NCBI GenBank assembly: GCA_038252255.1
Contig: JBBSAM010000002.1
Coordinates: 87,964 to 151,963, forward strand
Length of the DNA stretch: 64,000 nt
Origin: Acidimicrobiia bacterium
Lineage (GTDB): Bacteria; Actinomycetota; Acidimicrobiia; IMCC26256; JAENVU01
Direction: 5' to 3'
Notes under the pieces: model-generated
What the model saw: only the letters and a program-made list of their open reading frames with translations
Told to the model about the DNA's origin: nothing
Databases searched by the model: none
Program-made: the position numbers and the translations under genes
Shown here: piece after piece, positions 47,487 to 63,810 of the stretch
How positions within the stretch are numbered: position 1 is the first letter of the stretch
Layout of the letters: each line of letters begins with the position of its first letter

Positions 47487-47635
47487 CGCATCTCGCTCGC
47501 ATCGACCGCGCCGCGCATTTTGAATGCAAGTGCGTGCGGGTATTCGTGGAGGTTGGGAAGGGCGAACGTGAGGGCGTCGTCGAAGCGACGCGCGAGGCGA
47601 TCGCGGACGCGGGGCGGGGGGTAGTGGTGAGTCAT
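47480..47635 (-). CDS. Small ORF (51 aa) wedged between xis and the relaxase gene (tentative)
   Basis: Its ATG overlaps the xis stop (ATGA). Its stop overlaps the first codons of the relaxase gene. There is no recognisable motif, and support comes only from the coupled arrangement. Confidence 0.35.
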   Translation of the reverse strand: MTHHYPPPRVRDRLARRFDDALTFALPNLHEYPHALAFKMRGAVDASEMRC

Positions 47636-47844
47636 GAGGTGGCGCGCGCGAGGAGTGCTTCGATCGCGTGCTTCGGGATCACGACTCGACGGCCGAGCCG
47701 CAAGTGCGGGAGCTCGCCGCGCGCCACGAGCTCGTAGGCGTGTGCACGCGAGATCCCCAAGAGCCTTCCGGCCTCCTCGACCGTCCACACGAGCCGCTCC
47801 TCGTCGGGCCTTCTGGCTTCTGCTTCGTTCATCTCGACCTCCAT
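47632..47844 (-). CDS. xis: Excisionase-type (MerR-like HTH_17) DNA-binding protein
   Basis: 70 aa with LVWTVEEAGRLLGISRAHAYELVARGELPHLRLGRRVVIPKHAIEALL, the classic excisionase-family HTH. Confidence 0.8.
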   Translation of the reverse strand: MEVEMNEAEARRPDEERLVWTVEEAGRLLGISRAHAYELVARGELPHLRLGRRVVIPKHAIEALLARATS

Positions 47845-48163
47845 TGGGCTGCTACCGCTCCTATGCGCGTTCGCCGGTGCGTGACGCGACTCACCGATCC
47901 AGAGAATCTGCGGATTCAGCGTCGAGTCCGTAGGCTCCGCGGAGTCCGGCGCTCACCCCGAATAAGCGGTCGCAGCTCCCGAAACGCGACATCCAACGCG
48001 GTGCCTTGTGAAGGGGTACAGACAGGTGGTGCAGCCCCGACGTGCAGAGGGGCAGTGGCGCGTGCAGTGAGGCGTGTAGACCTGTACCGAATCGCGAAGA
48101 TGCAGGTACTGGCGTCAGACGAGTAGGAATGCCTTTACATCAGTCAGCGACGCGGCAGGAGAC

Positions 48164-49942
48164 TTGATGGACGCCAGGAATCGCACGCTCCCTGATTGGT
48201 TCGATCGCGTCAGGACCGGTCAGGTTCTCCTTCCTCGCTTCCAGAGGCACGAAGCCTGGAGCCACAACGAGATCGCCAGCCTGCTCAATGCTGTTTTGCG
48301 TGGGCTGCCAGCCGGGGCGACGCTGGTACTAGAGGTTGGTGACAGAGAGCCCTTCAAGAGTCGGCCCGTCGCTGGCGCACCGACACCAACCGAGCGCGCG
48401 TCCGAACACCTCTTGGATGGTCAGCAGCGCATCACTGCACTCTGGCGCGCGTTGCGAGACAACTACGACGACAGGACTTACTTCGTCGGACTCGATGACG
48501 ACGAGAGCCATGAAGGCGAGAGAGTCTGGACTGTTCGTGGCGTGGCACGGTGGTACCGCACGGACGCCAACCGGCAACGACGCCGGTACCCCGCCTGGGC
48601 AGACGACGCCAAAGGCGTTCACGCGCGCGACCTGCTGCCGATGAAGCTTCTACGCCCGGGAGACATCAGCCAAGAGATACGCGAGTGGGCGGACGCTGCG
48701 ACCGGTGATCTTGCCGCGAGCCGTGATCTTGAATCGCAGCTTCACGAACTCCGCACCCGTGTAGCGACGTACAACATCCCCTACCTCTCCCTCCCGGTGA
48801 CTACACCCAAAGATGTCGCGCTCGACGTGTTCATCAAGATGAACACCAGCTCGGTACGGCTCAGCGCTTTCGACATCGTGGTCGCCCAGCTCGAGGAGGC
48901 AACCGGCGAATCCCTTCACGACCTCGTCGATGGCCTCGGCAATAGGGTTCCGAATGCCCACGCCTACCGTGACCCTGGTGTGTGGGTGCTCGACGTTGCA
49001 GCGCTGCGGGAGGACCGAACCCCAACCCAGGCCAGTTACCAGCGTCTCGATCTGGAAAGGCTCAGCACCGATTGGGACGAAGTCGTCGACGGAATCGCCT
49101 GGGCGGTGCAAGTGCTCGAAGACGAGAATGTGTTCGACGCAGACCGACTTCCCACCGTCGCGGTCTTGCCGATCCTGGCCGCTCTCCACCAATACATCCC
49201 GACCGACCCCGACCAACTCGGCAACGCTCGAACGCTCGTCCGCAAGTTCGTCTGGCGTGCATTTCTCACCAGTCGCTATGAAACGACGGCGGGCACACGC
49301 TCGCTACAGGACTTCCGCGGGCTGCGAGCGATTCTCGCAGGCGAGCGAGGCGATCCTTCGCCTCCAATATTTGACGACAAACAGTTTCCGCTGCCTGGCG
49401 TCGATCAGCTTCTCTCAGCGGGATGGTCGAAGAACAAGGAGATTCTCGCTCGAGGCGTTCTCGCGCTGTCCCTTCGGGCAGGAGCACGAGACCTTGCTGA
49501 TGATGCCCGCGCCGCCCGAGGAAACATCTCGAAACGCGAATACCACCACCTGTTCCCGGACTCCATTCTCACCGGGCGTGACGGTGGTCAGCTCCTGCCG
49601 GTGGAGAGTTACCGCGCACTGAACTGTGCGCTCATCACCTGGCGCACCAACCGAAAGATCAGCGCCAAGCAACCGTTGAAGTACCTCCGTGAGCGAGTTG
49701 ACGGAAGCACGCTCGGAGAACAGGTCGTCCGCGAACGCCTGCGCTCACACCTCGTTCCGTACGACGAACTGTCAGCGGCCGGATGGGATGGGATTCACGA
49801 TCCGACGATCCTCACCCAGACGATCCAAGCGGACTACGACCGTTTCCTTAGGGCTCGGGCCGAGGTCCTCCTACAGCCCATCGCGGACCTCGCCGCAGGC
49901 CGCGCCCCAGTCGAAGAATGGCTGGTTGCTGCGACTCGGTGA
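48164..49942 (+). CDS. DUF262 (ParB-like NTPase) plus C-terminal His-Me/HNH-like (DUF1524-like) nuclease; GmrSD-family type IV restriction-like protein
   Basis: 592 aa. The N-terminus has LPRFQRHEAWSHNEI and the DGQQRITALWRAL motif of DUF262. The C-terminus has KREYHHLFPDS...ALNCALITWRTNRKISAKQP. The TTG at 48164 or ATG at 48167 follows ggcaggag. Confidence 0.82.
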   Translation: MMDARNRTLPDWFDRVRTGQVLLPRFQRHEAWSHNEIASLLNAVLRGLPAGATLVLEVGDREPFKSRPVAGAPTPTERASEHLLDGQQRITALWRALRDNYDDRTYFVGLDDDESHEGERVWTVRGVARWYRTDANRQRRRYPAWADDAKGVHARDLLPMKLLRPGDISQEIREWADAATGDLAASRDLESQLHELRTRVATYNIPYLSLPVTTPKDVALDVFIKMNTSSVRLSAFDIVVAQLEEATGESLHDLVDGLGNRVPNAHAYRDPGVWVLDVAALREDRTPTQASYQRLDLERLSTDWDEVVDGIAWAVQVLEDENVFDADRLPTVAVLPILAALHQYIPTDPDQLGNARTLVRKFVWRAFLTSRYETTAGTRSLQDFRGLRAILAGERGDPSPPIFDDKQFPLPGVDQLLSAGWSKNKEILARGVLALSLRAGARDLADDARAARGNISKREYHHLFPDSILTGRDGGQLLPVESYRALNCALITWRTNRKISAKQPLKYLRERVDGSTLGEQVVRERLRSHLVPYDELSAAGWDGIHDPTILTQTIQADYDRFLRARAEVLLQPIADLAAGRAPVEEWLVAATR

Positions 49943-50045
49943 ACTGAGGGCGCACCCGGGTTCTGGCAAGTCCAGCCGCATTTACCAATGAGGCGAACCA
50001 CTGCGCGCCTGATCGAGCAAACTGCCTGAAGCAGACAACGGGGGA

Positions 50046-53000
50046 ATGCACGTGGGCGATACGCGACCGACGATCGAGAACCCAATCCTCAACTCGCCGT
50101 ACGACGCGCCCACGCGCTGCTTCAAGTTCGACGCCGACGGGATCACGGACGAGATCCTTGACGAGCGCCGAGCGAGCGAGTTCTTCGTCGCGGTGCCGGC
50201 GCCGAAGAAGAGGAGCGGCAAGCAGCAGGAGATCGACTTCCTTGACGTGAGCACTGAGCGTGTCGAGCCGAACGAGCTCATCAACCGGATCCGTCGCCGT
50301 GTCGACCGGTGGCGAGAGTTCGGATATCCGGGCATCACGCCGACGACCCGCGCCCTGCTCGACCACTGGCATGATCCCGAGCGCGAACGACGCCTGTTCT
50401 TTTGTCAGCTCGAAGCCATCGAGACCGCGATCTATCTCGCCGAGGCTGCGGCGAAGAACAGCGACGTGTGGATCGAGAATGCGGTCCGCGACGCGAACGA
50501 TGAAGCGAACCCCGGCCTCTACCGTGTCGCGCACAAGATGGCGACGGGCACCGGGAAGACGGTGATCATGGCGATGCTGATCGCGTGGCACACGCTCAAC
50601 AAGGTTGCCAATCCCCAGGACCGGCGCTTCGGCGACGCGTTCCTCGTGGTCTGCCCGGGGATCACGATCCGCGACCGGTTGCGGGTGCTGCTGCCGAGCG
50701 ACCCGACGAACTACTACCGGGAGATGGACCTCGTCCCTGCGGATCGGTTGGCGGACCTCGGCACCGCGAAGGTCGTGATCACGAACTTCCATGCATTCAA
50801 GCCGAAGGAGAAGCTCCGCGCGCCGAAGACTACGAAGCAGGTGCTGCTCCCCAAGGGTGACACCGCGGGCGTCTTCACCGAGACGCCCGACCAGATGGTG
50901 CGGCGAGTCCTCAGAGATCTGGGCACGAAGCGCCAGATCGTGGTGCTCAACGACGAAGCGCACCACTGCTACCGCCGCAGGCCGGCCGAGACCGAAGCCG
51001 AAGCGACCGTCGACGACCTCGACGCGCTCAAAGGCGAGGAGAAGACGGAGGCGAAGAAGCGCGACGAGGAAGCACGCGTCTGGCTCAGCGGGCTCGAAGC
51101 CATCCAGAACAAGGTTGGCATCCGCGCCATCCACGACCTCAGCGCGACGCCGTTCTTCCTCAAGGGTTCGGGCTGGCCCGAGGGCACGCTGTTCCCGTGG
51201 GTGGTGAGCGACTTCGGGCTCATCGACGCGATCGAAGCCGGGCTTGTGAAGATCCCCCGCGTGCCGATCGACGACGACGCCGCGTCGAAGGACCTCCCGA
51301 CGTTCCGCAACCTCTGGTTCCACATTCGCGATGAGCTGCCCAAGCGGGGTCGGAAGAACACCGACGACGCGAGCGCGGAACCGAAGCTCCCCGCCGCCCT
51401 CCAGGGTGCGCTGCACAGCCTTTACGGCAACTATGAGGCCGCGTTCGTGCGTTGGCGCGCCCACCACGATCTCGGTGGCTCCGCCACGAGTACCCCGCCC
51501 GTGTTCATCGTGGTGTGCAACAACACGACCGTCTCGAAGCTCGTGTACGACTACCTCGCCGGGTGGGAGAAGCCGCAGCCGAAGGGCGAGCCCGTGGTGG
51601 TGCCGGGCGCGCTTCCGCTGTTCTCGAACGAGTACGGCGGTGGTTGGCGTGACCGCGCGTATTCGATCCTCATCGACTCTACGCAGCTCGAGGGCGAGGG
51701 GAGCATGAGCGATGCGTTCAAACAGATCGCGTCGCGCGAGATCGCGGAGTTCAAGGCCGAGTACGCGCAACGCTTCCCCGGCCGCGATGCCGACCAGCTC
51801 ACTGACGAAGACCTCCTGCGTGAGGTGATGAACACTGTCGGGAAGGCGGGCAAGCTCGGCGAGGCCATCCGCTGTGTGGTGAGCGTGAGCATGCTCACCG
51901 AGGGCTGGGACGCGAACACCGTGACGCACATCCTCGGTGTGCGGGCGTTCGGCACCCAGCTCCTCTGTGAGCAGGTCGTGGGCCGGGGGCTGCGCCGCCG
52001 CAGCTACGTGGTCGACGACGACACCGGCCACTTCCTTCCCGAGTACGCCGAGATCTACGGCATTCCGTTCTCCTTCATCCCGGCCGCGGGGCAGGCCAAG
52101 GACCCGAAGCCGCCGAAGCCGGTGCACCGCGTGCGCGCCCTGCCCGAGCGGGCGCGCGCCGAGATCACGTTCCCCCACGTGGTCGGCTACCGCTACGAGA
52201 TTCCCGACGATCGCCTCGGCGCGCAGTTCGGTCCCGATTCGTGCCTCGTGCTCTCGGCCGAGGATGTGCCCACCAAGACGGAGGTCTCCGGTGTGGTCGG
52301 CGAGGTCGAGATCCATACGCTCGACGACCTGCGCCGCGTCCGTCCGCAGCAGATCGCGTTCACGATCGCGAAGGAGCTACTCGGCAAGTACTTCACCACG
52401 CTCGACGAAGAGACCGGCGAGAGACAGGAACGCCCGTGGCTCTTCCCTGCGCTGGTGAGGATCGTGAGCCAGTGGATGGACGACCCCGCGTGTCTCGTAC
52501 TCAAGGACAATGCATTCCCGCAGCTCCTGTGGTTCCAGACCCGGATGGCCGAGGCGACGGAGAAGATCTACCGCGGGATCGTCACGGCCGACGGTGGGGC
52601 ATCGCGCCTCCAGCCCATTCTGCGCGGCTTCGAGCCCGTCGGCTCCACCCGGTACGTGGACTTCGACACCACGAAGCCGGTCTACGAGACCGACCCCGAC
52701 AAGTGCCACGTGAACCTCGTGACCGGAGACTCCAACTGGGAGCACCGCATGGCCCAGGCACTCGAAGAGATCGACGAGGTCAGGAGCTACGTGAAGAACC
52801 AGGGCCTCGGGTTCACCGTGCCATACACGTTCGAGGGGCGCAGCCGCGCCTACGTTCCGGACTTCATCGCCCGCGCCGACGACGGTCACGGCGAGGATCT
52901 GCTCAGTCTCGTGATCGAGGTCACCGGCGAACGCCGGAAGGAGAAGGTTGAGAAAGTGGCCACGATGCGAGACCTTTGGGTTCCCGCCGTGAACGCGCAC

Positions 53001-53093
53001 ACCGGCTTCGGCCGGTGGACGGTGGTCGAGGTCACCGACCCGTGGGATGCGCACGCCACCATCCGCAGTGTCCTCGCCGGAGCGTCTGCCTGA
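50046..53093 (+). CDS. Type III-like restriction enzyme Res subunit (SF2 DEAH helicase with a C-terminal PD-(D/E)xK nuclease)
   Basis: 1015 aa. Motif I is MATGTGKT, motif II LNDEAHHC, and the late helicase motifs SVSMLTEGWDANTV and QVVGRGLRR. The C-terminus YVPDFI...LVIEVTGERRKEK fits a PD-ExK core. Confidence 0.88.
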   Translation: MHVGDTRPTIENPILNSPYDAPTRCFKFDADGITDEILDERRASEFFVAVPAPKKRSGKQQEIDFLDVSTERVEPNELINRIRRRVDRWREFGYPGITPTTRALLDHWHDPERERRLFFCQLEAIETAIYLAEAAAKNSDVWIENAVRDANDEANPGLYRVAHKMATGTGKTVIMAMLIAWHTLNKVANPQDRRFGDAFLVVCPGITIRDRLRVLLPSDPTNYYREMDLVPADRLADLGTAKVVITNFHAFKPKEKLRAPKTTKQVLLPKGDTAGVFTETPDQMVRRVLRDLGTKRQIVVLNDEAHHCYRRRPAETEAEATVDDLDALKGEEKTEAKKRDEEARVWLSGLEAIQNKVGIRAIHDLSATPFFLKGSGWPEGTLFPWVVSDFGLIDAIEAGLVKIPRVPIDDDAASKDLPTFRNLWFHIRDELPKRGRKNTDDASAEPKLPAALQGALHSLYGNYEAAFVRWRAHHDLGGSATSTPPVFIVVCNNTTVSKLVYDYLAGWEKPQPKGEPVVVPGALPLFSNEYGGGWRDRAYSILIDSTQLEGEGSMSDAFKQIASREIAEFKAEYAQRFPGRDADQLTDEDLLREVMNTVGKAGKLGEAIRCVVSVSMLTEGWDANTVTHILGVRAFGTQLLCEQVVGRGLRRRSYVVDDDTGHFLPEYAEIYGIPFSFIPAAGQAKDPKPPKPVHRVRALPERARAEITFPHVVGYRYEIPDDRLGAQFGPDSCLVLSAEDVPTKTEVSGVVGEVEIHTLDDLRRVRPQQIAFTIAKELLGKYFTTLDEETGERQERPWLFPALVRIVSQWMDDPACLVLKDNAFPQLLWFQTRMAEATEKIYRGIVTADGGASRLQPILRGFEPVGSTRYVDFDTTKPVYETDPDKCHVNLVTGDSNWEHRMAQALEEIDEVRSYVKNQGLGFTVPYTFEGRSRAYVPDFIARADDGHGEDLLSLVIEVTGERRKEKVEKVATMRDLWVPAVNAHTGFGRWTVVEVTDPWDAHATIRSVLAGASA

Positions 53094-55792
53094 TGCCGCC
53101 CGCGAAGAAGCCCACCAAGAAGAAGGTCGCCGCGCCGACGGCGGTCGAGGCCACGACGCACGCGGACACGCGCGTCAACATACCGACCGACGCGCAACGC
53201 GACTTCGTCGCCGACGACGAGCGCGCGCCGCTCCCGGTCTCGATCCCGCGCTACGCGGAGTACCGCGACCCGTCACTCGATCCGCAGCTCATCTGGAACG
53301 GCAAGATCAGCCAGGACGCCGACGGGCTCGACGTGCCCGCGGTGCCCATCTACATCCAGGAGAAGATCGACCCGCGGGCGATCATCGAGAACCTGCGCGA
53401 CACCGCCGCACCCGGCGAGGACGAGCCCGAGCTCAGCCTGTTCGACACGTTCGACGGGCTCGGCGGCTACGACCTGGTGGAGTTCTACGAGCACGACGCC
53501 AACTGGGCGAACCGGCTCGTGCTCGGCGACTCGCTGCTCGTGATGACGAGCCTCGCGGAGAAGGAGCGGATGCGCGGCAAGGTCCAGATGATCTACGTGG
53601 ACCCGCCGTACGGCATCAAGTTCGGCTCCAACTGGCAGGTGAGCACCCGCAAGCGCGACGTGAAGGACGGCAAGGCGGAAGACGTCACCCGCCAGCCCGA
53701 ACAGATCAAGGCCTTCCGCGACACGTGGGAGCTCGGCATCCACTCGTACCTCTCGTACCTGCGCGACCGTTTCACGGTGGCGCGCGACCTGCTCACCGAG
53801 ACCGGCAGCATGTTCGTGCAGATCGGCGACGAGAACGTCCACCTCGTCCGCAGCGTCATGGACGAGGTCTTCGGCTCGGAGAACTTCGTCAGTCAGATCG
53901 CGTTCAAGAAGACCAGCGCGGTCGGAAGCTTCGCTGGTGGAACCAACGTGGTACCGAGCACGTGCGACTACATCCTGTGGTTCGCGCGAAACGGCGAGCG
54001 TGCAAAGTACCGGCAGCTGTTTCGGGACAAAGACCTCGAAGGCGCGGGCGGAGAGGCGTATCGAACTGTCGAGCTCCCGGATGGTTCCACGCGCCCCGCT
54101 ACCGCCGAGGAGCGGCGCACCGGGATCTCCGAGGGTCGATTTTTCCGGCCGGGACCGCTGACGTCGATCACAGTCCGAGAAGCCGCCACGACCGTGTTCC
54201 CGGTCGAGGCTGATGGGAGAACCTTCCTCCCCGGCGGCACTCGCGGGTGGAGCACAAACGCTCATGGGATGGAGCGGCTAGCTCTGGTCGGTCGCCTTAT
54301 CCCCATGGGTCGTTCGCTCGCCTTCAAGCGATATCTCGACGATTTTCCCGTCTTTCCGGTGACCAACCTCTGGGCTGACACTCAGTCAGGGAGCTCGATG
54401 GAGAAGACGTACGTCGTCCAGACCAATACGAAGGTCATTGAGCGATGCATGCTCATGGCGACCGATCCGGGAGACCTCGTCCTCGACCCGACGTGCGGCG
54501 CGGGTACGACGGCCTACGTCGCGGAGCAGTGGGGGCGGCGGTGGATCACCGTCGACACCTCGCGCGTCGCGCTCGCCCTGGCGCGCACCCGGCTCATGGC
54601 GGCCAAGTTCCCGTACTATCTCCTCGCCGACAGTGAAGCCGGCGCGCAGCAAGAGCAGAAGATCACCGGCATCAAACCTGACGGTCCGTTCACGAACGAC
54701 ATCAAGCGCGGGTTCGTGTGCAAACGGGTGCCGCACATCACGCTGAAGTCGATCGCGCAGAACCCCGAAATCACCGAGGGGATGAGCCGTGAGGAGATCG
54801 ACGCTGCCATCACGCGCCACGCCGACACCGAGCTCCTTGTGGATCAGCCGTACCCGGACAACAAGACGGTGCGCGTGTCGGGTCGCTTCACCGTCGAGAG
54901 TCTCTCGCCGCACCGAACCCTCGAAGCGCCCGATCCGTTGAGTGACACGCCCGCACAAACGGACGGCGTGGCGTTCGAGACGATGATCCTCGACAACCTG
55001 CGCAAGGCGGGGGTGCAGAACACGTTCAAGGACGAGCGACTCACGTTCGACCGGCTCGACCCGCTCGCCAATGCGTGGATCCAGGGTGAGGGCGAGTTCA
55101 CCGACGCCGACGGCACCACACGAAGGGTCGCGGTCGCCATCGGGCCTGAGCACGGCACCGTGAGCCCCGATCAAGTGAAAGAAGCGGCCCGCGAGGCACT
55201 CAAGGGCCAGGGCTTCGATCTGTTGGTGATGTGCGGGTTCGCGTTCGACGCGAGCGCGGGGGAGCGGGCCAAGGAGTTCGCGCCCTCCACCGACGGATTC
55301 GCCGAGGCCGCGGACGAGCGCAAGCTCGGTCGGCTGCGCGTGCTGCTCGCTCGGGTGAACCCAGACCTCGCGATGGGTGACGAGCTGTTGAAGAAGACCG
55401 GCTCCGGGAACCTGTTCATGGTGTTCGGCGAGCCCGACGTCGAGCTCCGCCGGCTCGATGGCGACCAGCTCGAAGTGGAGATTCACGGCGTCGACGTGTA
55501 TGACCCGACCACCGGCCAGGTGCGCAGCTCGTCGACCGACGACATCGCATGTTGGCTCGTGGACACGGACTACGACGACACGAGCTTCTTCGTGCGCCAC
55601 GCGTACTTCACTGGCGGACAGCAGCCGTACGACTCGCTCGCGAAGACCCTGCGGGCCGACATCGATGAGTCCGCGTGGGCGACGCTCTACTCCACCATCT
55701 CCCGCCCGTTCCCGGTGCCCGCCACCGGCAAGATCGCGGTCAAGGTCATCAACCACTACGGCGACGAGGTCATGCAGGTCTACGACGTGTGA
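53093..55792 (+). CDS. Site-specific DNA methyltransferase (N6-Ade/N4-Cyt, beta-class, Mod-like) with a long C-terminal extension
   Basis: The ATG at 53093 overlaps the res stop (TGATG). Contains LIWNGK, NRLVLGDSLLVMTSL, the catalytic YVDPPYGIKF and the AdoMet site LVLDPTCGAGTT. About 350 aa follow the catalytic core. Confidence 0.88.
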   Translation: MPPAKKPTKKKVAAPTAVEATTHADTRVNIPTDAQRDFVADDERAPLPVSIPRYAEYRDPSLDPQLIWNGKISQDADGLDVPAVPIYIQEKIDPRAIIENLRDTAAPGEDEPELSLFDTFDGLGGYDLVEFYEHDANWANRLVLGDSLLVMTSLAEKERMRGKVQMIYVDPPYGIKFGSNWQVSTRKRDVKDGKAEDVTRQPEQIKAFRDTWELGIHSYLSYLRDRFTVARDLLTETGSMFVQIGDENVHLVRSVMDEVFGSENFVSQIAFKKTSAVGSFAGGTNVVPSTCDYILWFARNGERAKYRQLFRDKDLEGAGGEAYRTVELPDGSTRPATAEERRTGISEGRFFRPGPLTSITVREAATTVFPVEADGRTFLPGGTRGWSTNAHGMERLALVGRLIPMGRSLAFKRYLDDFPVFPVTNLWADTQSGSSMEKTYVVQTNTKVIERCMLMATDPGDLVLDPTCGAGTTAYVAEQWGRRWITVDTSRVALALARTRLMAAKFPYYLLADSEAGAQQEQKITGIKPDGPFTNDIKRGFVCKRVPHITLKSIAQNPEITEGMSREEIDAAITRHADTELLVDQPYPDNKTVRVSGRFTVESLSPHRTLEAPDPLSDTPAQTDGVAFETMILDNLRKAGVQNTFKDERLTFDRLDPLANAWIQGEGEFTDADGTTRRVAVAIGPEHGTVSPDQVKEAAREALKGQGFDLLVMCGFAFDASAGERAKEFAPSTDGFAEAADERKLGRLRVLLARVNPDLAMGDELLKKTGSGNLFMVFGEPDVELRRLDGDQLEVEIHGVDVYDPTTGQVRSSSTDDIACWLVDTDYDDTSFFVRHAYFTGGQQPYDSLAKTLRADIDESAWATLYSTISRPFPVPATGKIAVKVINHYGDEVMQVYDV

Positions 55793-55840
55793 ATCGGCGG
55801 AATTAGGGCCGGGCATGGCCGAGGGGCCACCGCCCACCTC

Positions 55841-55861
55841 ATTGTGCGATAATCGCACAAT
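55841..55861. promoter_or_regulatory. Perfect 10-1-10 palindrome (candidate Xre operator) overlapping a -10-like GATAAT and the start codon of the Xre-ImmA gene
   Basis: ATTGTGCGAT-a-ATCGCACAAT. The A of the ATG is at 55860, inside the right arm. GATAAT sits at 55848-55853. Confidence 0.7.
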
Positions 55862-56978
55862 GACCTCTGACAACGTGACCACGCAGGAAGACCTTGGCCG
55901 TCGCATCGCCACGGGACGTGAAACTGCAGGGCTCACGCAGCTCGAGCTCGCTGACGCGGTCGGGATCGACCGGACGGCGGTAGCGAAGGTCGAGCGCGGG
56001 AGCCGAAGGGTGTCAGCGACCGAGTTGGTTCGGATAGCAGCTGCGCTCGACCGGCCGGTTGACTGGTTCGTTTCAGAACCGCCACCGGCTGTCATCAGCA
56101 GGCGGGAGGACGTGTCGGTCAACGGGCGCTCGAAGCGTTTGGACGCAACAGTCGATCGTGTCGGGCGTGACGTTGCGTTCTTGCTCTTGGAGTCCGTGCT
56201 CCCGGCGCGCGAGCGCGAGAGCTTCGCGACTCCAGAAAGTTTCGAAGCGGCAGCGCAACTGGCTGAACGTGCGCGGGGGTTGCTCTCCTCGGGAGACGGT
56301 CCTCTGTTCGATCTGCAGCGCGCGTGCGAGCAGCTCGGTCTCCTAGCGTTTTCACTGTCCTTGGGTGACGGAGGCGGGGACGCGGCATACGTCGACGTGG
56401 ACGGATGGGGTGTTGCCGTCGTCAATGGCGATACCGATCCTGGGCGCCGTCGATTCAACCTCGCGCACGAGTTGGGCCACCATCTTGTTGGCGATGCATA
56501 CGCGGCCGAGGTGACGATCACCGCTGGCGACGAGACGGAAAAGCTCCTCAATGCGTTCGCTGCGTACCTTCTGATGCCGCGATCTGGTGTCACGGCGACC
56601 TGGAACGAGTTCAGCGACCGTGATCGGCGGCTCGCAGCAATCGCTGTGGCAACGCGGTACCGGGTGAGCTGGAGCGCCGCGCTGGCTCACCTCCGCAATC
56701 TTGAGCTCATCGACAGTGCAGAGATCGAAGAGCTCACGCCTGCAACACCGCGTGGCGGGGATCTCGTCGAACTGGGCGAATGGTGGGTTCCCGAACTCGA
56801 TCCGCCGAGCGTCCCGCCTGACTACGGCCGCCGGGTCGTCACGGCCTATAGGGCGTCCAAGTTGACCGCGGCCCGGGCAGTCGAGCTCCTCTGGGGCACG
56901 GTCACCGAAGCCGACTTGCCCGAGGTCGAGGGCATTCCGGTCGACGCCCTCCGCCGTGAGTTCGATCCTCTGCAGTGA
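55860..56978 (+). CDS. Xre-type HTH fused to an ImmA/IrrE-family zinc metallopeptidase (COG2856-like)
   Basis: 372 aa. The N-terminal HTH is LGRRIATGRETAGLTQLELADAVGIDRTAVAKVERGSRRVSATELVRIAAAL. The central FNLAHELGHHLVGD (HExxH) is followed by AFAAYLLMP. Confidence 0.85.
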   Translation: MTSDNVTTQEDLGRRIATGRETAGLTQLELADAVGIDRTAVAKVERGSRRVSATELVRIAAALDRPVDWFVSEPPPAVISRREDVSVNGRSKRLDATVDRVGRDVAFLLLESVLPARERESFATPESFEAAAQLAERARGLLSSGDGPLFDLQRACEQLGLLAFSLSLGDGGGDAAYVDVDGWGVAVVNGDTDPGRRRFNLAHELGHHLVGDAYAAEVTITAGDETEKLLNAFAAYLLMPRSGVTATWNEFSDRDRRLAAIAVATRYRVSWSAALAHLRNLELIDSAEIEELTPATPRGGDLVELGEWWVPELDPPSVPPDYGRRVVTAYRASKLTAARAVELLWGTVTEADLPEVEGIPVDALRREFDPLQ

Positions 56979-57508
56979 GGACGTTGGTGTTCGACAACAC
57001 CGTGCTCAGTCATTTTGCGCGGGCTGGCCAGCTTGATGTGCTGCGTGAGATTTCTGACGGCGCCCGGCGCGTCATGCCGGCCGAGGTCGCAGTCGAACTC
57101 GTCGCAGGGATACGTGAGCATCCAGCGCTAGCAAAGGTCCTCGATCGGGAATGGCTCGAGACCGTCGAACTGGTTGACGTCAACGAGATCGTGGCGTTTG
57201 CTCGGTACAAGGCCGAGTTCGGTGGCGGTATCGACCGGAACAACGGAGAGGCAGCGGTGCTCGCCTGGACCAGCGTCCACGGCGGGACCGCGATCGTGGA
57301 CGACGCGGTTGCTGCTCGTGCTGCGAAGCGTGACGGTGTCGATGTCCACGGCACGTTGTGGCTCGTCGCGAATGGGTTTCGTGATGGCAAACTCAAGCGT
57401 GCCGCTGCGGAGGAGGTCGTCGACCTTCTCGCTGCGAGCGACATGCGACTCCCGGTCGATGGTCGGGGATTCTTCGCCTGGGCTTTCCGCGAAGGCTTGC
57501 TCCCCTGA
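56975..57508 (+). CDS. PIN-like nuclease-fold protein (DUF3368/DUF4411-like), candidate toxin/effector
   Basis: The GTG at 56975 overlaps the ImmA stop (GTGA). Translation MRTLVFDNTVLSHFARAGQLDVL...NNGEAAVLAWTSVHGGTAIVDDAVAARAA has the acidic residues and layout of PIN-like domains. The family assignment is by eye. Confidence 0.65.
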   Translation: MRTLVFDNTVLSHFARAGQLDVLREISDGARRVMPAEVAVELVAGIREHPALAKVLDREWLETVELVDVNEIVAFARYKAEFGGGIDRNNGEAAVLAWTSVHGGTAIVDDAVAARAAKRDGVDVHGTLWLVANGFRDGKLKRAAAEEVVDLLAASDMRLPVDGRGFFAWAFREGLLP

Positions 57509-57538
57509 GCCCGTTCACCTGCGAGAGCGCGCTCAGCT

Positions 57539-57559
57539 TTGGCAACCGATTGGCAACGG
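57539..57559 (+). repeat. TTGGCAAC doublet (arm-type site candidate) in the right arm of island 1
   Basis: ttggcaaccgattggcaacgg lies about 100 bp upstream of DR2. A second conserved block gcagcgacctgacctgcacag is at 57603-57623 and is also present at 63692-63712. Confidence 0.7.
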
Positions 57560-57661
57560 AACCGGTTGGGCGGGGTGGGATGCACGGATCCAGCGGACTG
57601 CCGCAGCGACCTGACCTGCACAGATAGACGCCGTGGCATCACGACGACGAGACCGATGACC

Positions 57662-57704
57662 TTCGCAACGTAGAAGTCGTGGGTTCAAGTCCCATCACCT
57701 CCAC
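57662..57704 (+). repeat. Direct repeat DR2 (attR of island 1 / attL of island 2): displaced 3' fragment of tRNA-Ala
   Basis: 43 bp identical to tRNA positions 39553-39595 (ttcgcaacgtag...cacctccac). The sequence then diverges (caaatc) before a second short match tcctggtca. Confidence 0.9.
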
Positions 57705-58044
57705 CAAATCTCCTGGTCACAGCGTTGAAACGGGTCGGGCCCGGTCGAGATAGGTGGGCGTTGGCAACCGAGCTCGCGATTTGAGCAGCTTCGTTCCGAC
57801 TGGCGGCGGCAGAACTCCTCGCCGGCGCGCGTCGTCGGTCTTCGGTGCCACGGTCACCGGCTCGAGGTCCGCAGGGCGCACGCCCGAGCCCGAGCGGATG
57901 GCCCCGAGGGCGTCTTTGACTCGCGCTGCACCCGGCAGGGAAGACCGGCGCGAGGTGGCCTCCGAGGCACCGACGACTGGTGCCGAGTAGCCCGGCGGGT
58001 CAATCTCGACTTGTGAGCGGGAGCCGAGGTGCGATCCTGGGGTC

Positions 58045-59143: not shown

Positions 59144-59461
59144 CTACGCGTCGGGGAACTCCGACGCCACCACGGACCGCAGCGCGGCGACGAAGTCCGG
59201 GAGCAGCTCCGTAGCGGTCGTGTACAGGATCTCAAGGTCGATCGACCAGTAGCTGTGCACAATCCGGTTGCGGAGCCGGATCGGGTTCTGCCACGCGACA
59301 TTGGGGTGACGGAGTCGGATCTCTTCGGAGACCTGGCCCGCGGCCTCGCCGAGCACGGTGAAGTTCCACAGGAGAGCATCGCGGCGTGTCTCGTCCTGCT
59401 CGAGTTGGCCGACGGTCTGTCCGCCGACCAAGGAGATCGCCCGTTCGGCGACGTCGATCAT
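59144..59461 (-). CDS. hepT: HepT-like (DUF86) RNase toxin of a type VII TA pair
   Basis: Contains the RNRIVHSY (Rx4HxY) motif. The start is the ATG at 59461 or the TTG at 59470, just after the MntA stop. Confidence 0.8.
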   Translation of the reverse strand: MIDVAERAISLVGGQTVGQLEQDETRRDALLWNFTVLGEAAGQVSEEIRLRHPNVAWQNPIRLRNRIVHSYWSIDLEILYTTATELLPDFVAALRSVVASEFPDA

Positions 59462-59480
59462 CTCGGCCAAGAGGAGACGA

Positions 59481-59804
59481 TCACGCTGAATACAGGATGC
59501 GCGCGTCGTGGAGGATCTGCTCGCGCAGCAGTTCGTGCAGGTGCCGCTTCGACACCAGATCCACCGGCCGCCCGTACAGTGCGGAGAGCTCCTCCGCGAG
59601 CTCCTCGATCCTCCAGCCGAGATGGGCGTCGCGATTCGGTACGTAGAGCAGGTCGATGTCACTCCCGGGCTCGAGCTCACCGCGTGCCGCCGAACCGAAC
59701 ACCGCGAGCTCTGCGAGGCCGTAGCGACGGCAGATCTCCGCGAGACGATCAGCGTCGACCGACGAGCTCTCCACGATTCTCGGGGCTGGTGCATCGCTGG
59801 TCAC
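59481..59804 (-). CDS. mntA: MntA-like minimal nucleotidyltransferase antitoxin
   Basis: 107 aa, GTG start. Contains LAVFGSAARGELEPGSDIDLL (GSxxRG...DxD). Confidence 0.85.
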   Translation of the reverse strand: MTSDAPAPRIVESSSVDADRLAEICRRYGLAELAVFGSAARGELEPGSDIDLLYVPNRDAHLGWRIEELAEELSALYGRPVDLVSKRHLHELLREQILHDARILYSA

Positions 59805-60521: not shown

Positions 60522-60730
60522 GCACTCAGGGTATAATCCTTCCTTTCAGAATGCAAGGAACACTTATAGGAAGACTTATGTGTATCCCGGCAATGCCGAC
60601 GACCCTCACGCGTCACGAGAAGGCTTGCGCGGAGGTCTCTGGGCCGGGTCGGACTCCTACGACGGACATCGCGTTCTAGAAGCTTCTAACTGTTAACCTT
60701 TCTAAACTCGCGGAGTTGAGAAGGGATCCG

Positions 60731-61840
60731 ATGTCGAGTGAGATCGTCATGGTCGAGTGGGAAGGCCGTCCGGTCGACGCGTTCGTTCCAGCTCCCCTCT
60801 CCGATGTCGGTGAGCTCGGCGCGGCCGCTCGACTCGATGCGGCTCACGCCGACGGGGCCCTGAGCGCGACGGCGGCTCGGCACGGGACGCGCCTTGAAGT
60901 CGCCGCTCGATTGCTCTTGCGCGCCGAAGGGGTGGCCTCCAGCAGCATCGAGGCGATCAACGCTCCCACGGACGCGGTCGCTGTAGCCAACGTGGACCTG
61001 TCCGTCGCCGGGCCCGCGGCAGAGGTCGCGGACAACCTGCGCGCCCTTGACGCGGTCTTGTCTCATGAGGGCCCGCTCGGACGCGAAGACTTGTGGCAGT
61101 GGCACACCATCCTGATGGCGTCGGCAGACCTCGACGCCCATCTCAAGGGGGCCTGGCGCGACCGCCTCGGCTGGGTCGGTGGACCCACCCCACGTCGGGC
61201 CGCGTACGTCGCCACGCCCGACGACCGCATCGATGCGCTGATGGTCGACCTCGTCGACTACGCGAACAAGCCGTCGCACGATCCGGTGACGGCCGCCGGC
61301 CTCCTCCATGCCCAGTTCGAGACGATCCACCCGTTCGCTGACGGCAACGGGCGCATCGGCCGGTTGCTGATCGGCTGGACACTCCACCGCCACCTTGCGT
61401 TGGCGGTCCCGCCGCCGGTGTCGGTCGCGTTCCTCCGCGACGTTGGCGGCTACTTGTCGGGACTTACGCTCTACCGCACCGTCGGCCCGGACGATTGGAT
61501 CCGCTGGTTTGCCAACACCGTCGAACACGCAGCAATGTCCGCCGCCGAGACTCTCGCCGCCGTCAGCGAGCTTGTCGCCTCATGGCCGGCTCGACTCGAG
61601 AATCTCCGGTCCGACGCTGCTGCTCGTCGCCTGGTCGATCAGGTGCTGACACACCCGGCCCTCGATGTGGACACGGCGGTCAGCCTCCTCGGCGTGAGCC
61701 TTCCGACCGCCCGAGCAGCACTCGAAGCTCTTGCCGAGCGCGGGGTATTGCGACCGGCCGAGCTGCCGATGACAGGCGAACCGGGGCGACCTCGCAGCTG
61801 GTGGGTCGCCGGCGAGCTCCTCGACCTTCTCGCTCGCTGA
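60731..61840 (+). CDS. Fic/DOC-family protein (AMPylase-type) with a C-terminal wHTH-like region
   Basis: Fic motif HPFADGNGRIGR. The N-terminal Fic_N-like segment is EGVASSSIEAI. The ATG at 60731 follows gaaggga. An alternative TTG lies at 60716. Confidence 0.88.
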   Translation: MSSEIVMVEWEGRPVDAFVPAPLSDVGELGAAARLDAAHADGALSATAARHGTRLEVAARLLLRAEGVASSSIEAINAPTDAVAVANVDLSVAGPAAEVADNLRALDAVLSHEGPLGREDLWQWHTILMASADLDAHLKGAWRDRLGWVGGPTPRRAAYVATPDDRIDALMVDLVDYANKPSHDPVTAAGLLHAQFETIHPFADGNGRIGRLLIGWTLHRHLALAVPPPVSVAFLRDVGGYLSGLTLYRTVGPDDWIRWFANTVEHAAMSAAETLAAVSELVASWPARLENLRSDAAARRLVDQVLTHPALDVDTAVSLLGVSLPTARAALEALAERGVLRPAELPMTGEPGRPRSWWVAGELLDLLAR

Positions 61841-61938: not shown

Positions 61939-62502
61939 GTGTGGATGCCGACCCCGCCGAGTCAGGTCGTCTTCCAGCTCCGCGTGACGCTCCGAGACGT
62001 CGACCCGCCCCCGTGGCGGCGTCTGCTGGTTCCCGGGTCGGTGAAGTTGGCGAGATTGCACGAGTTCCTCCAGGCCGCGATGGGCTGGACGAACTCTCAT
62101 CTGCACTGCTTCGAGATCGGCGGCGCACGCTACGGGATGCAGTTCGACGAACACCCGGAAGATGAGCTCAACGAAAGGGACGTGTCAGTCCTCCGAGCGA
62201 TCGGTGAGCACGAATCGTTCCTGTACGAGTACGACTTCGGAGACTCGTGGGAACACGACGCGGTCGTCGAACGTGTCGTACGCGCGCACCGCGGGCTACA
62301 GCGGGCGGTGTGTCTCGATGGCGCGAGCACGTGCCCGCCCGAGGACTGTGGTGGATCGTACGGGTACCGACATCTGCTCGAGGCTCTCGCCGATGCGTCA
62401 CATCCGGATCACCTGGATCTGACCGACTGGGTCGGCGGTGTGTTCGACCCGTCGTCGTTCGACTTGGTCGCGGTGAACGTCGCGCTCCAAGCTGTGCGCT
62501 GA
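61939..62502 (+). CDS. Plasmid pRiA4b ORF-3-like family protein
   Basis: 187 aa with FQLRVTLRDVDPPPWRRLLVPGSVKLARLHEFLQAAMGWTNSHLHCF, YEYDFGDSWEH and CPPEDCGG. Confidence 0.8.
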   Translation: MWMPTPPSQVVFQLRVTLRDVDPPPWRRLLVPGSVKLARLHEFLQAAMGWTNSHLHCFEIGGARYGMQFDEHPEDELNERDVSVLRAIGEHESFLYEYDFGDSWEHDAVVERVVRAHRGLQRAVCLDGASTCPPEDCGGSYGYRHLLEALADASHPDHLDLTDWVGGVFDPSSFDLVAVNVALQAVR

Positions 62503-62976: not shown

Positions 62977-63369
62977 CTACGGGACGAGAGTTGTCACACC
63001 AATCGTTGGCGCGTTCGCCAGTTTGACGTCCACGGTGATCAACGTCGCGTGGAGATGCCTCGCCATGACAACGTACAACGCGTCACCGATCGTCACGTTG
63101 TGCCGGAGCGCCCAGGCCTCGGACGCGAGAGTCCGGACCGACGCGCGACGGGCCGGGAGCGTGAGCAGTCGGTCGACGGTGGCCATCGCTTGTACGGGCG
63201 TGATGACTCCGCGGAGTTCGAGGCTGCGAAGCGTTGCTTCGACCTCAAGGTAGAAGTGTTCCGGCACCCAGATCGTGTGCCCGTCGATCGCCCTTCCGAC
63301 GCGACGACCAACCGCGCTGTGGAGCAGCAGCTCGACACCTGCGGAGGCGTCGAGCACGACGGGCGTCAC
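62977..63369 (-). CDS. vapC: PIN-domain toxin VapC
   Basis: 130 aa, GTG start. Translation VTPVVLDASAGVELLL...DALYVVMARHLHATLITVDVKLA has the PIN acidic residues. Confidence 0.85.
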   Translation of the reverse strand: MTPVVLDASAGVELLLHSAVGRRVGRAIDGHTIWVPEHFYLEVEATLRSLELRGVITPVQAMATVDRLLTLPARRASVRTLASEAWALRHNVTIGDALYVVMARHLHATLITVDVKLANAPTIGVTTLVP

Positions 63370-63551
63370 CGTTCGCCGTGCTCCCGGAGCTCGCGAACCA
63401 GATCCGCGACCACGCCCACGCCGAGCTCAATGGGTTCGAGTTCGTCGAGACTTCCGAGCCAGACCTCGACCGCGACAGGCGAAGTATCGGTCCCGTCTTC
63501 GATCGGAACGATCACGGGGTCGATCTCGAAGTCCTCGGGGTGCCTGGCCAT
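63366..63551 (-). CDS. Small antitoxin-like protein upstream of vapC
   Basis: 61 aa and acidic. Its stop overlaps the vapC start (GTGA). The family was not recognised. Confidence 0.55.
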   Translation of the reverse strand: MARHPEDFEIDPVIVPIEDGTDTSPVAVEVWLGSLDELEPIELGVGVVADLVRELREHGER

Positions 63552-63627: not shown

Positions 63628-63648
63628 TTGGCAACCGATTGGCAACGG
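63628..63648 (+). repeat. TTGGCAAC doublet (arm-type site candidate) in the right arm of island 2
   Basis: ttggcaaccgattggcaacgg is identical to 57539-57559 and lies about 100 bp upstream of DR3. Confidence 0.7.
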
Positions 63649-63750: not shown

Positions 63751-63810
63751 TTCGCAACGTAGAAGTCGTGGGTTCAAGTCCCATCACCTCCACTCCGTAA
63801 GTCCTGGTCA
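63751..63810 (+). repeat. Direct repeat DR3 (distal attR): displaced tRNA-Ala 3' fragment plus downstream 18 nt
   Basis: 60 bp identical to 39553-39612. Confidence 0.92.

What the first reader, a model, noticed from the sequence alone, without database searches (positions are those of the whole stretch)
55841..57508. Xre-ImmA fusion with a PIN-like partner, a perfect operator palindrome over its own start codon, and a probable leaderless transcript
- **Seen in the sequence:** a perfect inverted repeat ATTGTGCGAT-a-ATCGCACAAT spans 55841-55861 and contains a -10-like GATAAT (55848-55853). The ATG of the gene (55860) lies 7 nt after that hexamer and inside the right half-site. This suggests a leaderless, autorepressed mRNA.
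- **Seen in the sequence:** the protein fuses an Xre HTH to an HExxH ImmA/IrrE peptidase, and its stop overlaps the start of a PIN-like ORF.
- **Established:** ImmR/ImmA pairs control induction of ICEBs1 and some phages. COG2856-Xre fusions have been predicted as partners of diverse toxins.
- **Inference:** this pair is either a protease-gated toxin module or the induction switch of the island. It sits next to attR, the mirror image of immR-immA-int in ICEBs1.
Basis: partly seen in the sequence, partly recalled or inferred. Interest (0 to 1): 0.6.

Follow-up and report, generated by a model that had tools for sequence, protein, structure and literature searches.

The report
Self-repressed protease-antitoxin and PIN toxin pair
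This is a two-gene toxin-antitoxin or phage-defence module of an already predicted kind (a DNA-binding protease fusion plus a PIN nuclease); its promoter, repressor-binding site and start codon are packed into one short conserved DNA motif, which is tidy and testable but not surprising for this group of bacteria.

Summary
The palindrome is a perfect 12+1+12 repeat (55839-55863). It contains TGn-GATAAT, and the whole ATG lies 7 nt after the hexamer.

The gene encodes an Xre HTH fused to an M78 (HELGH) peptidase. Its stop overlaps the start of the next gene (GTGA). That gene has a confidently modelled PIN fold with four invariant acidic residues.

In 47 related loci (52-63% protein identity) the core TGTGC-N7-GCAC, with A and T of the -10 hexamer at its centre, is nearly invariant. 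An in-frame ATG or GTG sits at the same offset in 39 of 47, and nothing further upstream is conserved. This supports an operator, extended -10 promoter and leaderless start in one unit. The stop/start overlap with the PIN gene is also conserved.

The pair occurs in unrelated genomic contexts. Its operator is unique in the window, and it is linked to a similar integrase in 1 of 56 loci. It is therefore a RosmerTA-like toxin-antitoxin/defence cargo module, not the island's ImmR/ImmA-type switch.

HTH-M78 plus COG2405 PIN pairs were predicted in 2009 and 2017, and leaderless toxin-antitoxin operons are usual in actinobacteria. This is a new member of a known kind, of modest interest.

The parts
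55839..55863 (.). Perfect 12+1+12 palindrome TCATTGTGCGAT-A-ATCGCACAATGA. The family-conserved core is TGTGC-N7-GCAC(A) at 55843-55859. Proposed operator for the HTH dimer.
   Evidence: Conservation in 46 distinct sites: G-7, T-6, G-5 and A-2 in 46/46; T+2, A+6 and C+7 in 45/46.
55845..55853 (+). Extended -10 promoter element, TGc + GATAAT, lying inside the operator spacer and left arm.
   Evidence: TG, A at hexamer position 2 and T at position 6 are invariant or near-invariant in relatives. The geometry matches the actinobacterial TANNNT / TGN rules (PMC3898074).
55860..56978 (+). Gene for the 372-aa Xre-HTH / M78 peptidase fusion (RmrA-like antitoxin). The ATG at 55860 is the proposed leaderless start.
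   Evidence: Pfam. PADLOC RmrA, E 4e-25. Homologues are mostly 369-379 aa. An in-frame ATG or GTG is at the same offset in 39/47 loci.
55917..56069 (+). Xre/Cro-type helix-turn-helix domain (residues 20-70).
   Evidence: Pfam HTH_3, E 1.4e-13. Closest structures are C.BclI and C.AhdI, 37-40% identity, rmsd 0.7-0.9. R38, E45, G47 and R49 are invariant.
56325..56687 (+). M78 (ImmA/IrrE) zinc-peptidase domain (residues 156-276). HELGH is at 56466-56480.
   Evidence: Pfam Peptidase_M78, E 4.4e-16. H203, E204 and H207 are invariant. Fold matches IrrE, PprI and CapP.
56975..56978 (+). GTGA stop/start overlap that couples translation of the PIN gene to the upstream gene.
   Evidence: An NTGA overlap is conserved in most related loci.
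56975..57508 (+). Gene for the 177-aa PIN-fold protein (COG2405/DUF3368-like, PDC-S70-like), the proposed toxin/effector. Acidic residues: D7 (56993), E41 (57095), E92 (57248), D109 (57299).
   Evidence: AF2 pLDDT 95.9. Foldseek finds PIN/VapC proteins, TM up to 0.74. Invariant acidic residues. PADLOC PDC-S70, E 8e-13.
57662..57703 (+). Context: attR core of the island, a 42-bp copy of the tRNA-Ala 3' half at 39553-39594.

Best explanation
The locus is a self-contained, autoregulated two-gene toxin-antitoxin/defence module of the RosmerTA kind. It is carried as cargo at the right end of an integrative mobilizable island in tRNA-Ala, next to GmrSD-like and type III restriction genes.

**Shown by sequence and comparison:**
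- A 372-aa Xre-HTH/M78-peptidase fusion is followed, through a GTGA overlap, by a 177-aa PIN-fold protein with an intact four-acid active site.
- A conserved motif TGTGC-N7-GCAC lies in front of the first gene. The centre of the motif is the -10 hexamer, its left arm supplies the TG of an extended -10, and its right edge abuts the start codon.

**Inferred:**
- RNA polymerase uses TGn-GATAAT and starts at the A of the ATG at 55860, giving a leaderless bicistronic mRNA.
- A dimer of the HTH domain binds the GTGC/GCAC half-sites, which are one helical turn apart. This covers the -10 element and the transcription start, so the operon represses itself.
- The PIN gene is translated by coupling.
- The fusion protein holds the PIN nuclease inactive.
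- A trigger activates or consumes the M78 protease-antitoxin. By analogy with ImmA, IrrE/PprI and CapP, this could be DNA damage, single-stranded DNA or a phage product. A possible cleavage target is the invariant flexible linker RPxDWFVxExPPAVxSRR between the HTH and the protease.
- That step lifts repression and frees the PIN RNase, which arrests growth or aborts infection.
For: **Domains**
- Domains and HELGH motif.
- RmrA models match over residues 14-291, E 4e-25.
- PIN fold and invariant D7/E41/E92/D109.
- PDC-S70 match, E 8e-13. One PDC-S70 representative was reported to protect E. coli from T4, T5 and T7 (preprint 10.1101/2024.09.26.614923).

**Operator, promoter and start**
- In 47 loci (46 distinct sites, 52-63% protein identity), positions -8 to +7 around the centre are nearly invariant, while everything upstream of -9 is unconserved.
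- C+5, A+6 and C+7 have no promoter role and mirror G-5, T-6 and G-7.
- An in-frame ATG or GTG is at +9 in 39/47 loci.
- The NTG in the left arm is ruled out as the start by in-frame stops in 6 loci and by wrong frame or absence in 5.
- There is no Shine-Dalgarno sequence.
- In M. tuberculosis, TANNNT lies 7-12 nt upstream of transcription starts, TGN boosts activity, and 32 of 37 toxin-antitoxin operons are leaderless (PMC3898074).
- The recognition-helix residues are invariant.

**Autonomy of the module**
- The NTGA overlap with the PIN gene is conserved.
- Genomic contexts are unrelated.
- The window's own copy sits in a defence cluster.

**Literature on the kind**
- PMC2701414, PMC5499597, Millman 2022 preprint, PMC10440598.
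Against: - Nothing here has been measured. There is no transcription start, DNA binding, toxicity, neutralisation or proteolysis data for this family.
- The PIN protein matches no RmrT model in PADLOC. It scores below Pfam's DUF3368 cut-off (18.5 against 27.3 bits).
- GATAAT has G rather than T at hexamer position 1, and the consensus scan calls no promoter.
- 8 of 47 loci lack a start codon at +9. In those the start is at +10, +12 or +27.
- A more distant clade (42-48% identity) keeps the dyad but has a roughly 20-nt leader with a Shine-Dalgarno sequence, so leaderlessness is not universal in the family.
- No relatives were found in the phage or plasmid collections.
- The NCBI annotation uses the ATG at 55815.
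Confidence: 0.7

Rival explanations
1. Island induction switch. The fusion would act like ImmR plus ImmA of ICEBs1, repressing excision or transfer genes of the tRNA-Ala island and cleaving itself on DNA damage to induce the element. The PIN gene would be an accessory.
For: - It lies 154 bp from attR of an island that has an integrase and a TrwC relaxase.
- The M78 domain is homologous to ImmA/IrrE.
- The HTH profile also hits the ICEBs1 ImmR structure 7t8i (E 0.0022).
Against: - The operator half-site and the GTGC-N7-GCAC dyad occur nowhere else in either island.
- The integrase is about 15 kb away, at the opposite end.
- A similar integrase is nearby in 1 of 56 related loci and a relaxase in 1 of 56.
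- L080 carries the pair among metabolic genes.
- The constant partner is the PIN gene.
Confidence: 0.07
2. Controller (C) protein of the adjacent type III restriction-modification system, timing expression of res and mod after entry into a new host.
For: - The HTH is structurally closest to C.BclI and C.AhdI (40% and 37% identity).
- The gene directly follows mod on the same strand.
- From my own knowledge: C-protein genes are autoregulated through palindromic C-boxes, and at least C.PvuII has leaderless transcripts.
Against: - It lies downstream of mod, not upstream of res.
- No operator precedes res or mod.
- At 372 aa with a protease domain it is unlike C proteins of about 80 aa.
- A Res-like gene is nearby in only 1 of 56 related loci.
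Confidence: 0.03
3. A stress or DNA-damage regulator, not a toxin module. The fusion would be an IrrE/DdrO-like single-chain sensor-repressor, and the PIN protein a regulated, non-lethal RNA-processing effector.
For: - The M78 domain resembles IrrE/PprI, including the ssDNA-bound form 8sln.
- Makarova et al. raised generic-regulator roles for Xre-COG2856 pairs (PMC2701414).
- Some loci keep the fusion without a PIN gene: L015, L046, L047 and L054.
Against: - The only recognisable target is its own promoter.
- The distribution is patchy and mobile, and the overlap architecture is typical of toxin-antitoxin operons.
- It is co-located with defence genes.
- It matches RmrA and PDC-S70 models.
Confidence: 0.12
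4. The palindrome is coding sequence. Translation would start at the ATG at 55815 (387 aa, as annotated at NCBI) or at the TTG at 55842, from a conventional leadered mRNA, and the symmetry would be incidental.
For: - The frame is open upstream as far as 55458.
- The NCBI record uses the 387-aa product.
- Many homologues were called with an 'MCDNRT' N-terminus.
Against: - Nothing upstream of -9 is conserved.
- The 'CDNRT' codons are interrupted by in-frame stops in 6 loci, and are out of frame or lack a start codon in 5.
- Third-codon positions T+2 and C+5 are 93-98% conserved, against about 55% protein identity.
- Most homologues are 369-379 aa.
Confidence: 0.07

Closest known systems
RosmerTA (RmrT/RmrA) anti-phage toxin-antitoxin systems (Millman et al. 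2022; Ernits et al. 2023, PMC10440598)
   Same: The antitoxin has an N-terminal Xre HTH plus an ImmA/M78 zinc peptidase. It matches 14 PADLOC RmrA models, best E 4e-25. It is a two-gene operon with an exchangeable toxin and is found in defence islands. NetFlax already notes ImmA-domain antitoxins paired with PIN-like domains.
   Different: The toxin here matches no PADLOC RmrT model. The order is antitoxin first. No toxicity or phage test exists for this family. It is confined to Actinomycetota/Acidimicrobiia metagenome-assembled genomes, with no phage or plasmid copies found.
Predicted three-domain HTH-DUF955(COG2856)-PIN systems (Makarova 2009, PMC2701414; Matelska 2017, PMC5499597)
   Same: The domain set is exactly this: a fused Xre-COG2856 upstream of a PIN-like gene. 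Matelska et al. name COG2405/DUF3368 among the PIN partners and give a Geobacillus example.
   Different: Those were neighbourhood predictions and gave no promoter or operator anatomy. The conserved operator/-10/start-codon unit described here was not part of them.
ImmR/ImmA of ICEBs1, DdrO/IrrE(PprI) and CapH/CapP
   Same: All pair a homologous M78 protease with an Xre-type repressor. In those systems the protease cleaves the repressor after a DNA-damage or ssDNA signal.
   Different: There the two proteins are separate and control other genes (element excision, repair regulon, CBASS). Here they are one chain, the only visible target is its own promoter, and the linked gene is a PIN nuclease.
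VapBC-type PIN toxin-antitoxin operons of actinobacteria
   Same: They share a PIN toxin with four acidic residues, an upstream autoregulating antitoxin, overlapping genes and a leaderless transcript (PMC3898074; fold hits to VapC11 and VapC15).
   Different: The antitoxin is a 372-aa HTH-protease, not a small VapB. The PIN protein is a larger COG2405-type with only 12-21% identity to VapC structures.
PADLOC candidate PDC-S70 (single-gene PIN defence candidate)
   Same: The PIN protein matches five PDC-S70 models, best E 8e-13. One representative was reported as antiviral.
   Different: PDC-S70 is defined as a single gene and is mostly archaeal (PMC12988326). Here the PIN gene is translationally coupled to an HTH-M78 partner.

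Membership tests
RosmerTA | RmrA: one protein with an Xre HTH and an M78/ImmA zinc peptidase carrying HExxH | tested here: met
   Pfam HTH_3 and Peptidase_M78. PADLOC RmrA E 4e-25 over residues 14-291. HELGH is invariant.
RosmerTA | Adjacent co-oriented gene belonging to a recognised RmrT toxin family | tested here: not met
   The gene is adjacent and overlaps, but the PIN protein hits no RmrT model, only PDC-S70.
RosmerTA | Toxin is toxic, the antitoxin neutralises it, and the pair protects against phage | not testable with these tools
   No experimental data exist for this family. Needs expression and plaque assays.
PIN domain superfamily (COG2405/DUF3368 group) | PIN alpha/beta/alpha fold | tested here: met
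   AF2 pLDDT 95.9, pTM 0.90. The top Foldseek hits are almost all PIN-fold proteins, probability 1.00, TM 0.6-0.74 normalised to target.
PIN domain superfamily (COG2405/DUF3368 group) | Three to four conserved acidic active-site residues | tested here: met
   D7, E41, E92 and D109 are invariant in 30 sequences of 58-72% identity.
PIN domain superfamily (COG2405/DUF3368 group) | Passes the Pfam DUF3368 (PF11848) gathering score | tested here: inconclusive
   The window protein scores 18.5 bits against a cut-off of 27.3. All listed homologues carry a precomputed PF11848 hit.
ImmR/ImmA-type mobile-element switch | Repressor controls the element's excision or transfer promoter, so operators lie outside its own gene | tested here: not met
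   The half-site (<=1 mismatch) and the GTGC-N7-GCAC dyad are unique to 55839-55863 within both islands.
ImmR/ImmA-type mobile-element switch | Conserved linkage to the element's integrase | tested here: not met
   The integrase is about 15 kb away. A similar integrase is nearby in 1 of 56 related loci.
Leaderless actinobacterial mRNA | -10 element (TANNNT type) ending 6-7 nt before the first base of the start codon, with no Shine-Dalgarno sequence | tested here: met
   GATAAT at 55848-55853 and ATG at 55860. A at position 2 and T at position 6 are conserved in 46/46 and 45/46 sites. The start codon is at the same offset in 39/47 loci.
Leaderless actinobacterial mRNA | Mapped 5' triphosphate end at the start codon | not testable with these tools
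   Requires 5'-RACE, dRNA-seq or Cappable-seq.
Restriction-modification controller (C) proteins | Small HTH protein encoded upstream of, and co-transcribed with, the restriction gene, with C-boxes in front | tested here: not met
   The HTH is similar, but the gene is 372 aa, lies downstream of mod, and no operator precedes res or mod.

The most novel reading that the evidence does not exclude
The 25-bp element may work at two levels. As DNA it would be operator plus promoter. As RNA, in transcripts reading through from the upstream mod gene, it would fold into an 11-bp hairpin that buries the AUG. The antitoxin-toxin pair would then be translated only from transcripts that begin exactly at its own start codon.

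Combined with self-cleavage of the invariant HTH-protease linker on a phage or ssDNA signal, this would make one compact motif and one protein chain serve as sensor, repressor, insulator and antitoxin.
Probability: 0.15. Interest if true: 0.55.

Novelty: new member of a known kind. Interest (0 to 1): 0.35.

Why it matters
**Why it is useful**
- It gives a clean, small and evolutionarily validated test object: 17 bp of conserved DNA in which promoter, operator and start codon overlap. This could be used to study how HTH-M78 antitoxins of RosmerTA-like systems regulate themselves and what their protease does, which is still unknown for the family.
- It shows that gene callers often mis-start these genes inside the operator, producing the spurious 'MCDNRT' N-termini and the 387-aa NCBI model.

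**Why it does not change the picture**
- The domain combination was predicted in 2009 and 2017.
- Related systems are validated defence modules.
- Leaderless, autoregulated toxin-antitoxin operons are the norm in actinobacteria.

Tried and rejected
- **Second operators.** I searched for the half-site with up to 1 mismatch and for the GTGC-N7-GCAC dyad. There is none in the islands. The four other dyad matches lie in GC-rich sequence at 8-24 kb, outside the islands.
- **Sigma-70 consensus scan.** It found no promoter. I judged this uninformative for actinobacterial promoters that depend only on the -10 element.
- **Generic best-palindrome search in related loci.** It was too noisy. I replaced it with a motif-anchored search.
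- **Exact look-ups of the window's own proteins.** These were meant to identify the source contig.
- **Phage and plasmid collections.** No relatives of the PIN protein were found.
- **PDB sequence search with the PIN profile.** Nothing was found. Only the fold comparison worked.
- **Rfam on 55500-58000.** The only hit was a sub-threshold tmRNA match, caused by the tRNA-Ala 3' copy at attR.
- **Literature search for 'M78 antitoxin HTH toxin'.** It returned nothing useful.
- **Intrinsic terminator of mod.** Rejected because no T-run follows the palindrome.
- **Extended 12-nt symmetry as a family feature.** Rejected because positions beyond +/-8 are not complementary above chance in relatives.
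Full report
**1. What is in the sequence**

- The inverted repeat is perfect over 12+1+12 nt: TCATTGTGCGAT-A-ATCGCACAATGA, 55839-55863.
- It contains TGc-GATAAT (55845-55853), which has the form of an extended -10.
- The A of the ATG at 55860 is 7 nt after the last T of the hexamer. The whole ATG lies in the right arm, and no Shine-Dalgarno sequence intervenes.
- It is the longest perfect short-spacer palindrome in the window. First-order Markov randomisations of the window give 0.14 palindromes of that arm length per 64 kb.
- Its significance therefore comes from where it lies, in a 67-bp gap in front of an HTH gene, and from its conservation (section 3).

**2. The two genes**

- *First gene (55860-56978, 372 aa).* It has Pfam HTH_3 (residues 20-70) and Peptidase_M78 (residues 156-276). 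HELGH is at 56466-56480.
- *Junction.* Its TGA overlaps the GTG of the second ORF as GTGA.
- *Second gene (56975-57508, 177 aa).*
  - It barely registers in Pfam: DUF3368 at 18.5 bits, below the cut-off.
  - With a 30-sequence alignment it models at pLDDT 95.9.
  - The top Foldseek matches are almost all PIN-fold proteins, such as VapC11, AF0591, VapC4, Nmd4 and HARP.
  - D7, E41, E92 and D109 are invariant. These are the expected PIN acidic residues.
- *First gene, structure.*
  - The model has pLDDT 86.
  - Its HTH is closest to the restriction-modification controller proteins C.BclI and C.AhdI.
  - Its protease is closest to IrrE/PprI and CapP.
- *PADLOC.* The first protein is called RmrA, the RosmerTA antitoxin (E 4e-25). 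The second is called PDC-S70, a PIN defence candidate (E 8e-13).

**3. Comparative test of the operator / leaderless idea**

Both proteins have many relatives of 55-72% identity, which often come from contigs of the same length.

The first clue came from the protein alignment. Many homologues had been called with an extra N-terminal 'MCDNRT'. This is simply the translation of TTG TGC GAT AAT CGC ACA, which is the palindrome.

I fetched 79 loci and anchored them on the motif. In 47 loci (46 distinct sites) with 52-63% protein identity:
- G-7, T-6, G-5 and A-2 are present in 46/46 sites.
- T+2, A+6 and C+7 are present in 45/46, and C+5 in 43/46.
- Nothing upstream of -9 is conserved (information <0.3 bit per position).
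- An in-frame ATG (28 loci) or GTG (11 loci) sits at +9 in 39/47.

The conserved unit is therefore TGTGC-n-A-n-AAT-C-GCAC followed by the start codon.
- TG, A-2 and T+2 are what an extended -10 promoter needs.
- C+5, A+6 and C+7 have no promoter role and mirror G-5, T-6 and G-7. Together they form a GTGC-N7-GCAC dyad with half-site centres about one helical turn apart.
- Some changes are compensatory: G:C to C:G at +/-3, C:G to G:C at +/-4 in L018, and GTGT/ACAC in L054.
- The recognition-helix residues R38, K43, E45, G47 and R49 are invariant or nearly so.

The alternative upstream starts fail.
- The left-arm NTG is followed by in-frame stops in L012, L013, L022, L023, L026 and L035.
- It is absent or out of frame in L002, L003, L005, L006 and L043.
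- The window's ATG at 55815, used by the NCBI record, lies in unconserved sequence.

The geometry matches published actinobacterial promoter rules from M. tuberculosis (PMC3898074).
- TANNNT lies 7-12 nt upstream of transcription starts, with no -35 consensus.
- TGN is associated with the highest promoter activity.
- 32 of 37 toxin-antitoxin operons are leaderless.

I conclude that an operator, an extended -10 promoter and a leaderless start coincide here. I put the probability of leaderlessness at about 0.8. It is inferred, not measured.

Two qualifications apply.
- The perfect 12-nt arms are local. Beyond +/-8, relatives show no excess symmetry.
- A more distant clade (L047-L054, 42-48% identity) keeps the dyad. 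There a TANNNT lies just upstream of it, and a roughly 20-nt leader with a Shine-Dalgarno sequence lies downstream. The family therefore has a leaderless and a leadered architecture.

**4. Toxin module or island switch?**

*The island.*
- The window contains tRNA-Ala(CGC) at 39521-39595. Its 3' 42 nt recur at 57662-57703 and at 63751-63792.
- The first island (39.6-57.7 kb) carries:
  - a tyrosine integrase with an arm-binding domain (39690-40835);
  - an ABC transporter;
  - a TrwC relaxase (44307-47486, minus strand);
  - a GmrSD_N protein (48164-49942);
  - type III res and mod genes;
  - then the pair.
- 'Next to attR' is therefore correct, and the neighbours are defence genes.

*Evidence against a switch role.*
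- The operator is unique in the window.
- The integrase is about 15 kb away.
- Among 56 related actinobacterial loci, a similar integrase is nearby once, a relaxase once, a Res-like gene once and a GmrSD-like gene once.
- About ten of those loci lie within 4 kb of a tRNA gene.
- In L080 the pair sits among P450, lipase and transporter genes.

*What travels with the fusion gene.* It is the PIN gene, joined by an NTGA overlap in most loci.

This is the behaviour of an autonomous toxin-antitoxin/defence cassette, not of an element-specific regulator. The controller-protein idea fails for the same reasons.

**5. Mechanism**

*Shown:*
- the domain content;
- intact catalytic motifs in both proteins;
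- the conserved operator/promoter/start unit;
- the conserved translational coupling;
- the mobility of the pair.

*Inferred:*
- The HTH dimer represses its own leaderless operon.
- The fusion neutralises the PIN nuclease.
- A signal acting through the M78 domain relieves both repression and neutralisation.

The third step rests on analogy.
- ImmA cleaves ImmR, IrrE/PprI cleaves DdrO, and CapP cleaves CapH.
- PprI has a solved ssDNA complex, 8sln.
- In RosmerTA, deletion of rmrA could not be transformed, possibly because of toxicity.

A candidate cleavage or regulatory segment is the most conserved stretch of the protein, RP(I/V)DWFVxExPPAVxSRR at residues 65-82. It lies between the HTH and the protease in a low-confidence part of the model, with mean pLDDT 60-65. 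This is speculation.

In read-through RNA from mod, the palindrome would form an 11-bp hairpin that includes the AUG. Because the outer arms are not conserved, I treat this as a local curiosity.

**6. Comparison with what is known**

- Xre-COG2856 fusions next to PIN or RelE toxins were predicted as three-component toxin-antitoxin systems in 2009 (PMC2701414).
- Matelska et al. 2017 list COG2405/DUF3368 among the PIN partners of HTH-DUF955 fusions (PMC5499597).
- RosmerTA established HTH-M78 antitoxins as part of anti-phage systems.
- NetFlax notes PIN-like partners for the ImmA-domain antitoxin hub (PMC10440598).
- One PDC-S70 PIN protein was reported as antiviral.
- The PIN family found here numbers 1370 clusters (representatives at 50% identity) at E<=0.001, and 87 at E<=1e-30.

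This locus is therefore a new member of a known kind. What this analysis adds is the conserved promoter/operator/start anatomy, the two promoter architectures in the family, and the correction of start-codon annotation.

**7. Verdict**

- Interest is 0.35.

Noticed in passing
window 39553-39594, 57662-57703, 63751-63792: Three identical 42-bp copies of the tRNA-Ala(CGC) 3' half define two tandem islands. The second (57.7-63.8 kb) has no integrase but shares the roughly 130-bp attR-proximal arm with the first. It could be an integrase-less element that the first island's integrase can mobilise.
   Followed up: partly
window 39653-39671, 57539-57557, 63628-63646: TTGGCAAC-N3-TTGGCAAC occurs three times, against 0 expected. 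One copy is just before the integrase gene, and one lies about 105 bp upstream of each attR core. These are likely arm-type binding sites for the integrase, which has an Arm-DNA-bind_4 domain.
   Followed up: partly
window 44307-55792: The right half of island 1 holds a TrwC relaxase/helicase (44307-47486, minus strand) followed by a defence cluster: a GmrSD_N protein (48164-49942), type III Res (50046-53093) and type III Mod (52976-55792). Together with the integrase, the relaxase suggests an integrative mobilizable element carrying defence cargo.
   Followed up: partly
window 59144-59804, 60716-61840, 61939-62502, 62977-63551: Island 2 is dense in toxin-antitoxin-like genes. It has a HepT-like HEPN RNase overlapping an MNT nucleotidyltransferase, a Fic protein, a PRiA4_ORF3 protein, and a canonical PIN (VapC-like) gene with a small upstream ORF.
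   Followed up: partly
window 55815-55862; alignment A2 N-termini: Gene callers often start these genes inside or upstream of the operator. The NCBI model of the window gene is 387 aa starting at 55815. Many homologues carry a spurious 'MCDNRT'-type N-terminus, which is the translated palindrome.
   Followed up: yes
L047-L054 (e.g. L053 3890-3930): Relatives at 42-48% identity keep the GTGC-N7-GCAC dyad. They place a TANNNT hexamer immediately upstream of it and have a roughly 20-nt leader with a GGAGG-like Shine-Dalgarno sequence. The same operator is thus used in a leadered architecture.
   Followed up: partly
L015 6071-7546: One related locus lost the PIN gene. About 1 kb downstream it carries a different module in toxin-first order: a HigB/RelE-like toxin followed by another HTH-M78 fusion. 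This illustrates partner swapping.
   Followed up: partly
window 55807-55836: A GC-rich hairpin lies between the mod stop codon and the palindrome. It has no U-tail. It could be a tail-less terminator that insulates the module from mod transcription.
   Followed up: no
PDB 9vzy (chain A, 393 aa): A solved structure named only 'HTH cro/C1-type domain-containing protein' aligns with residues 19-333 of the family profile (E 8e-6). It may be the first structure of a full-length HTH-M78 fusion. I could not find an associated paper.
   Followed up: no
window 55860-57508: The two genes have lower third-position GC (0.71-0.72) than the neighbouring res and mod genes (0.87-0.88) and the flanking chromosome. 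This is consistent with separate and more recent acquisition.
   Followed up: no
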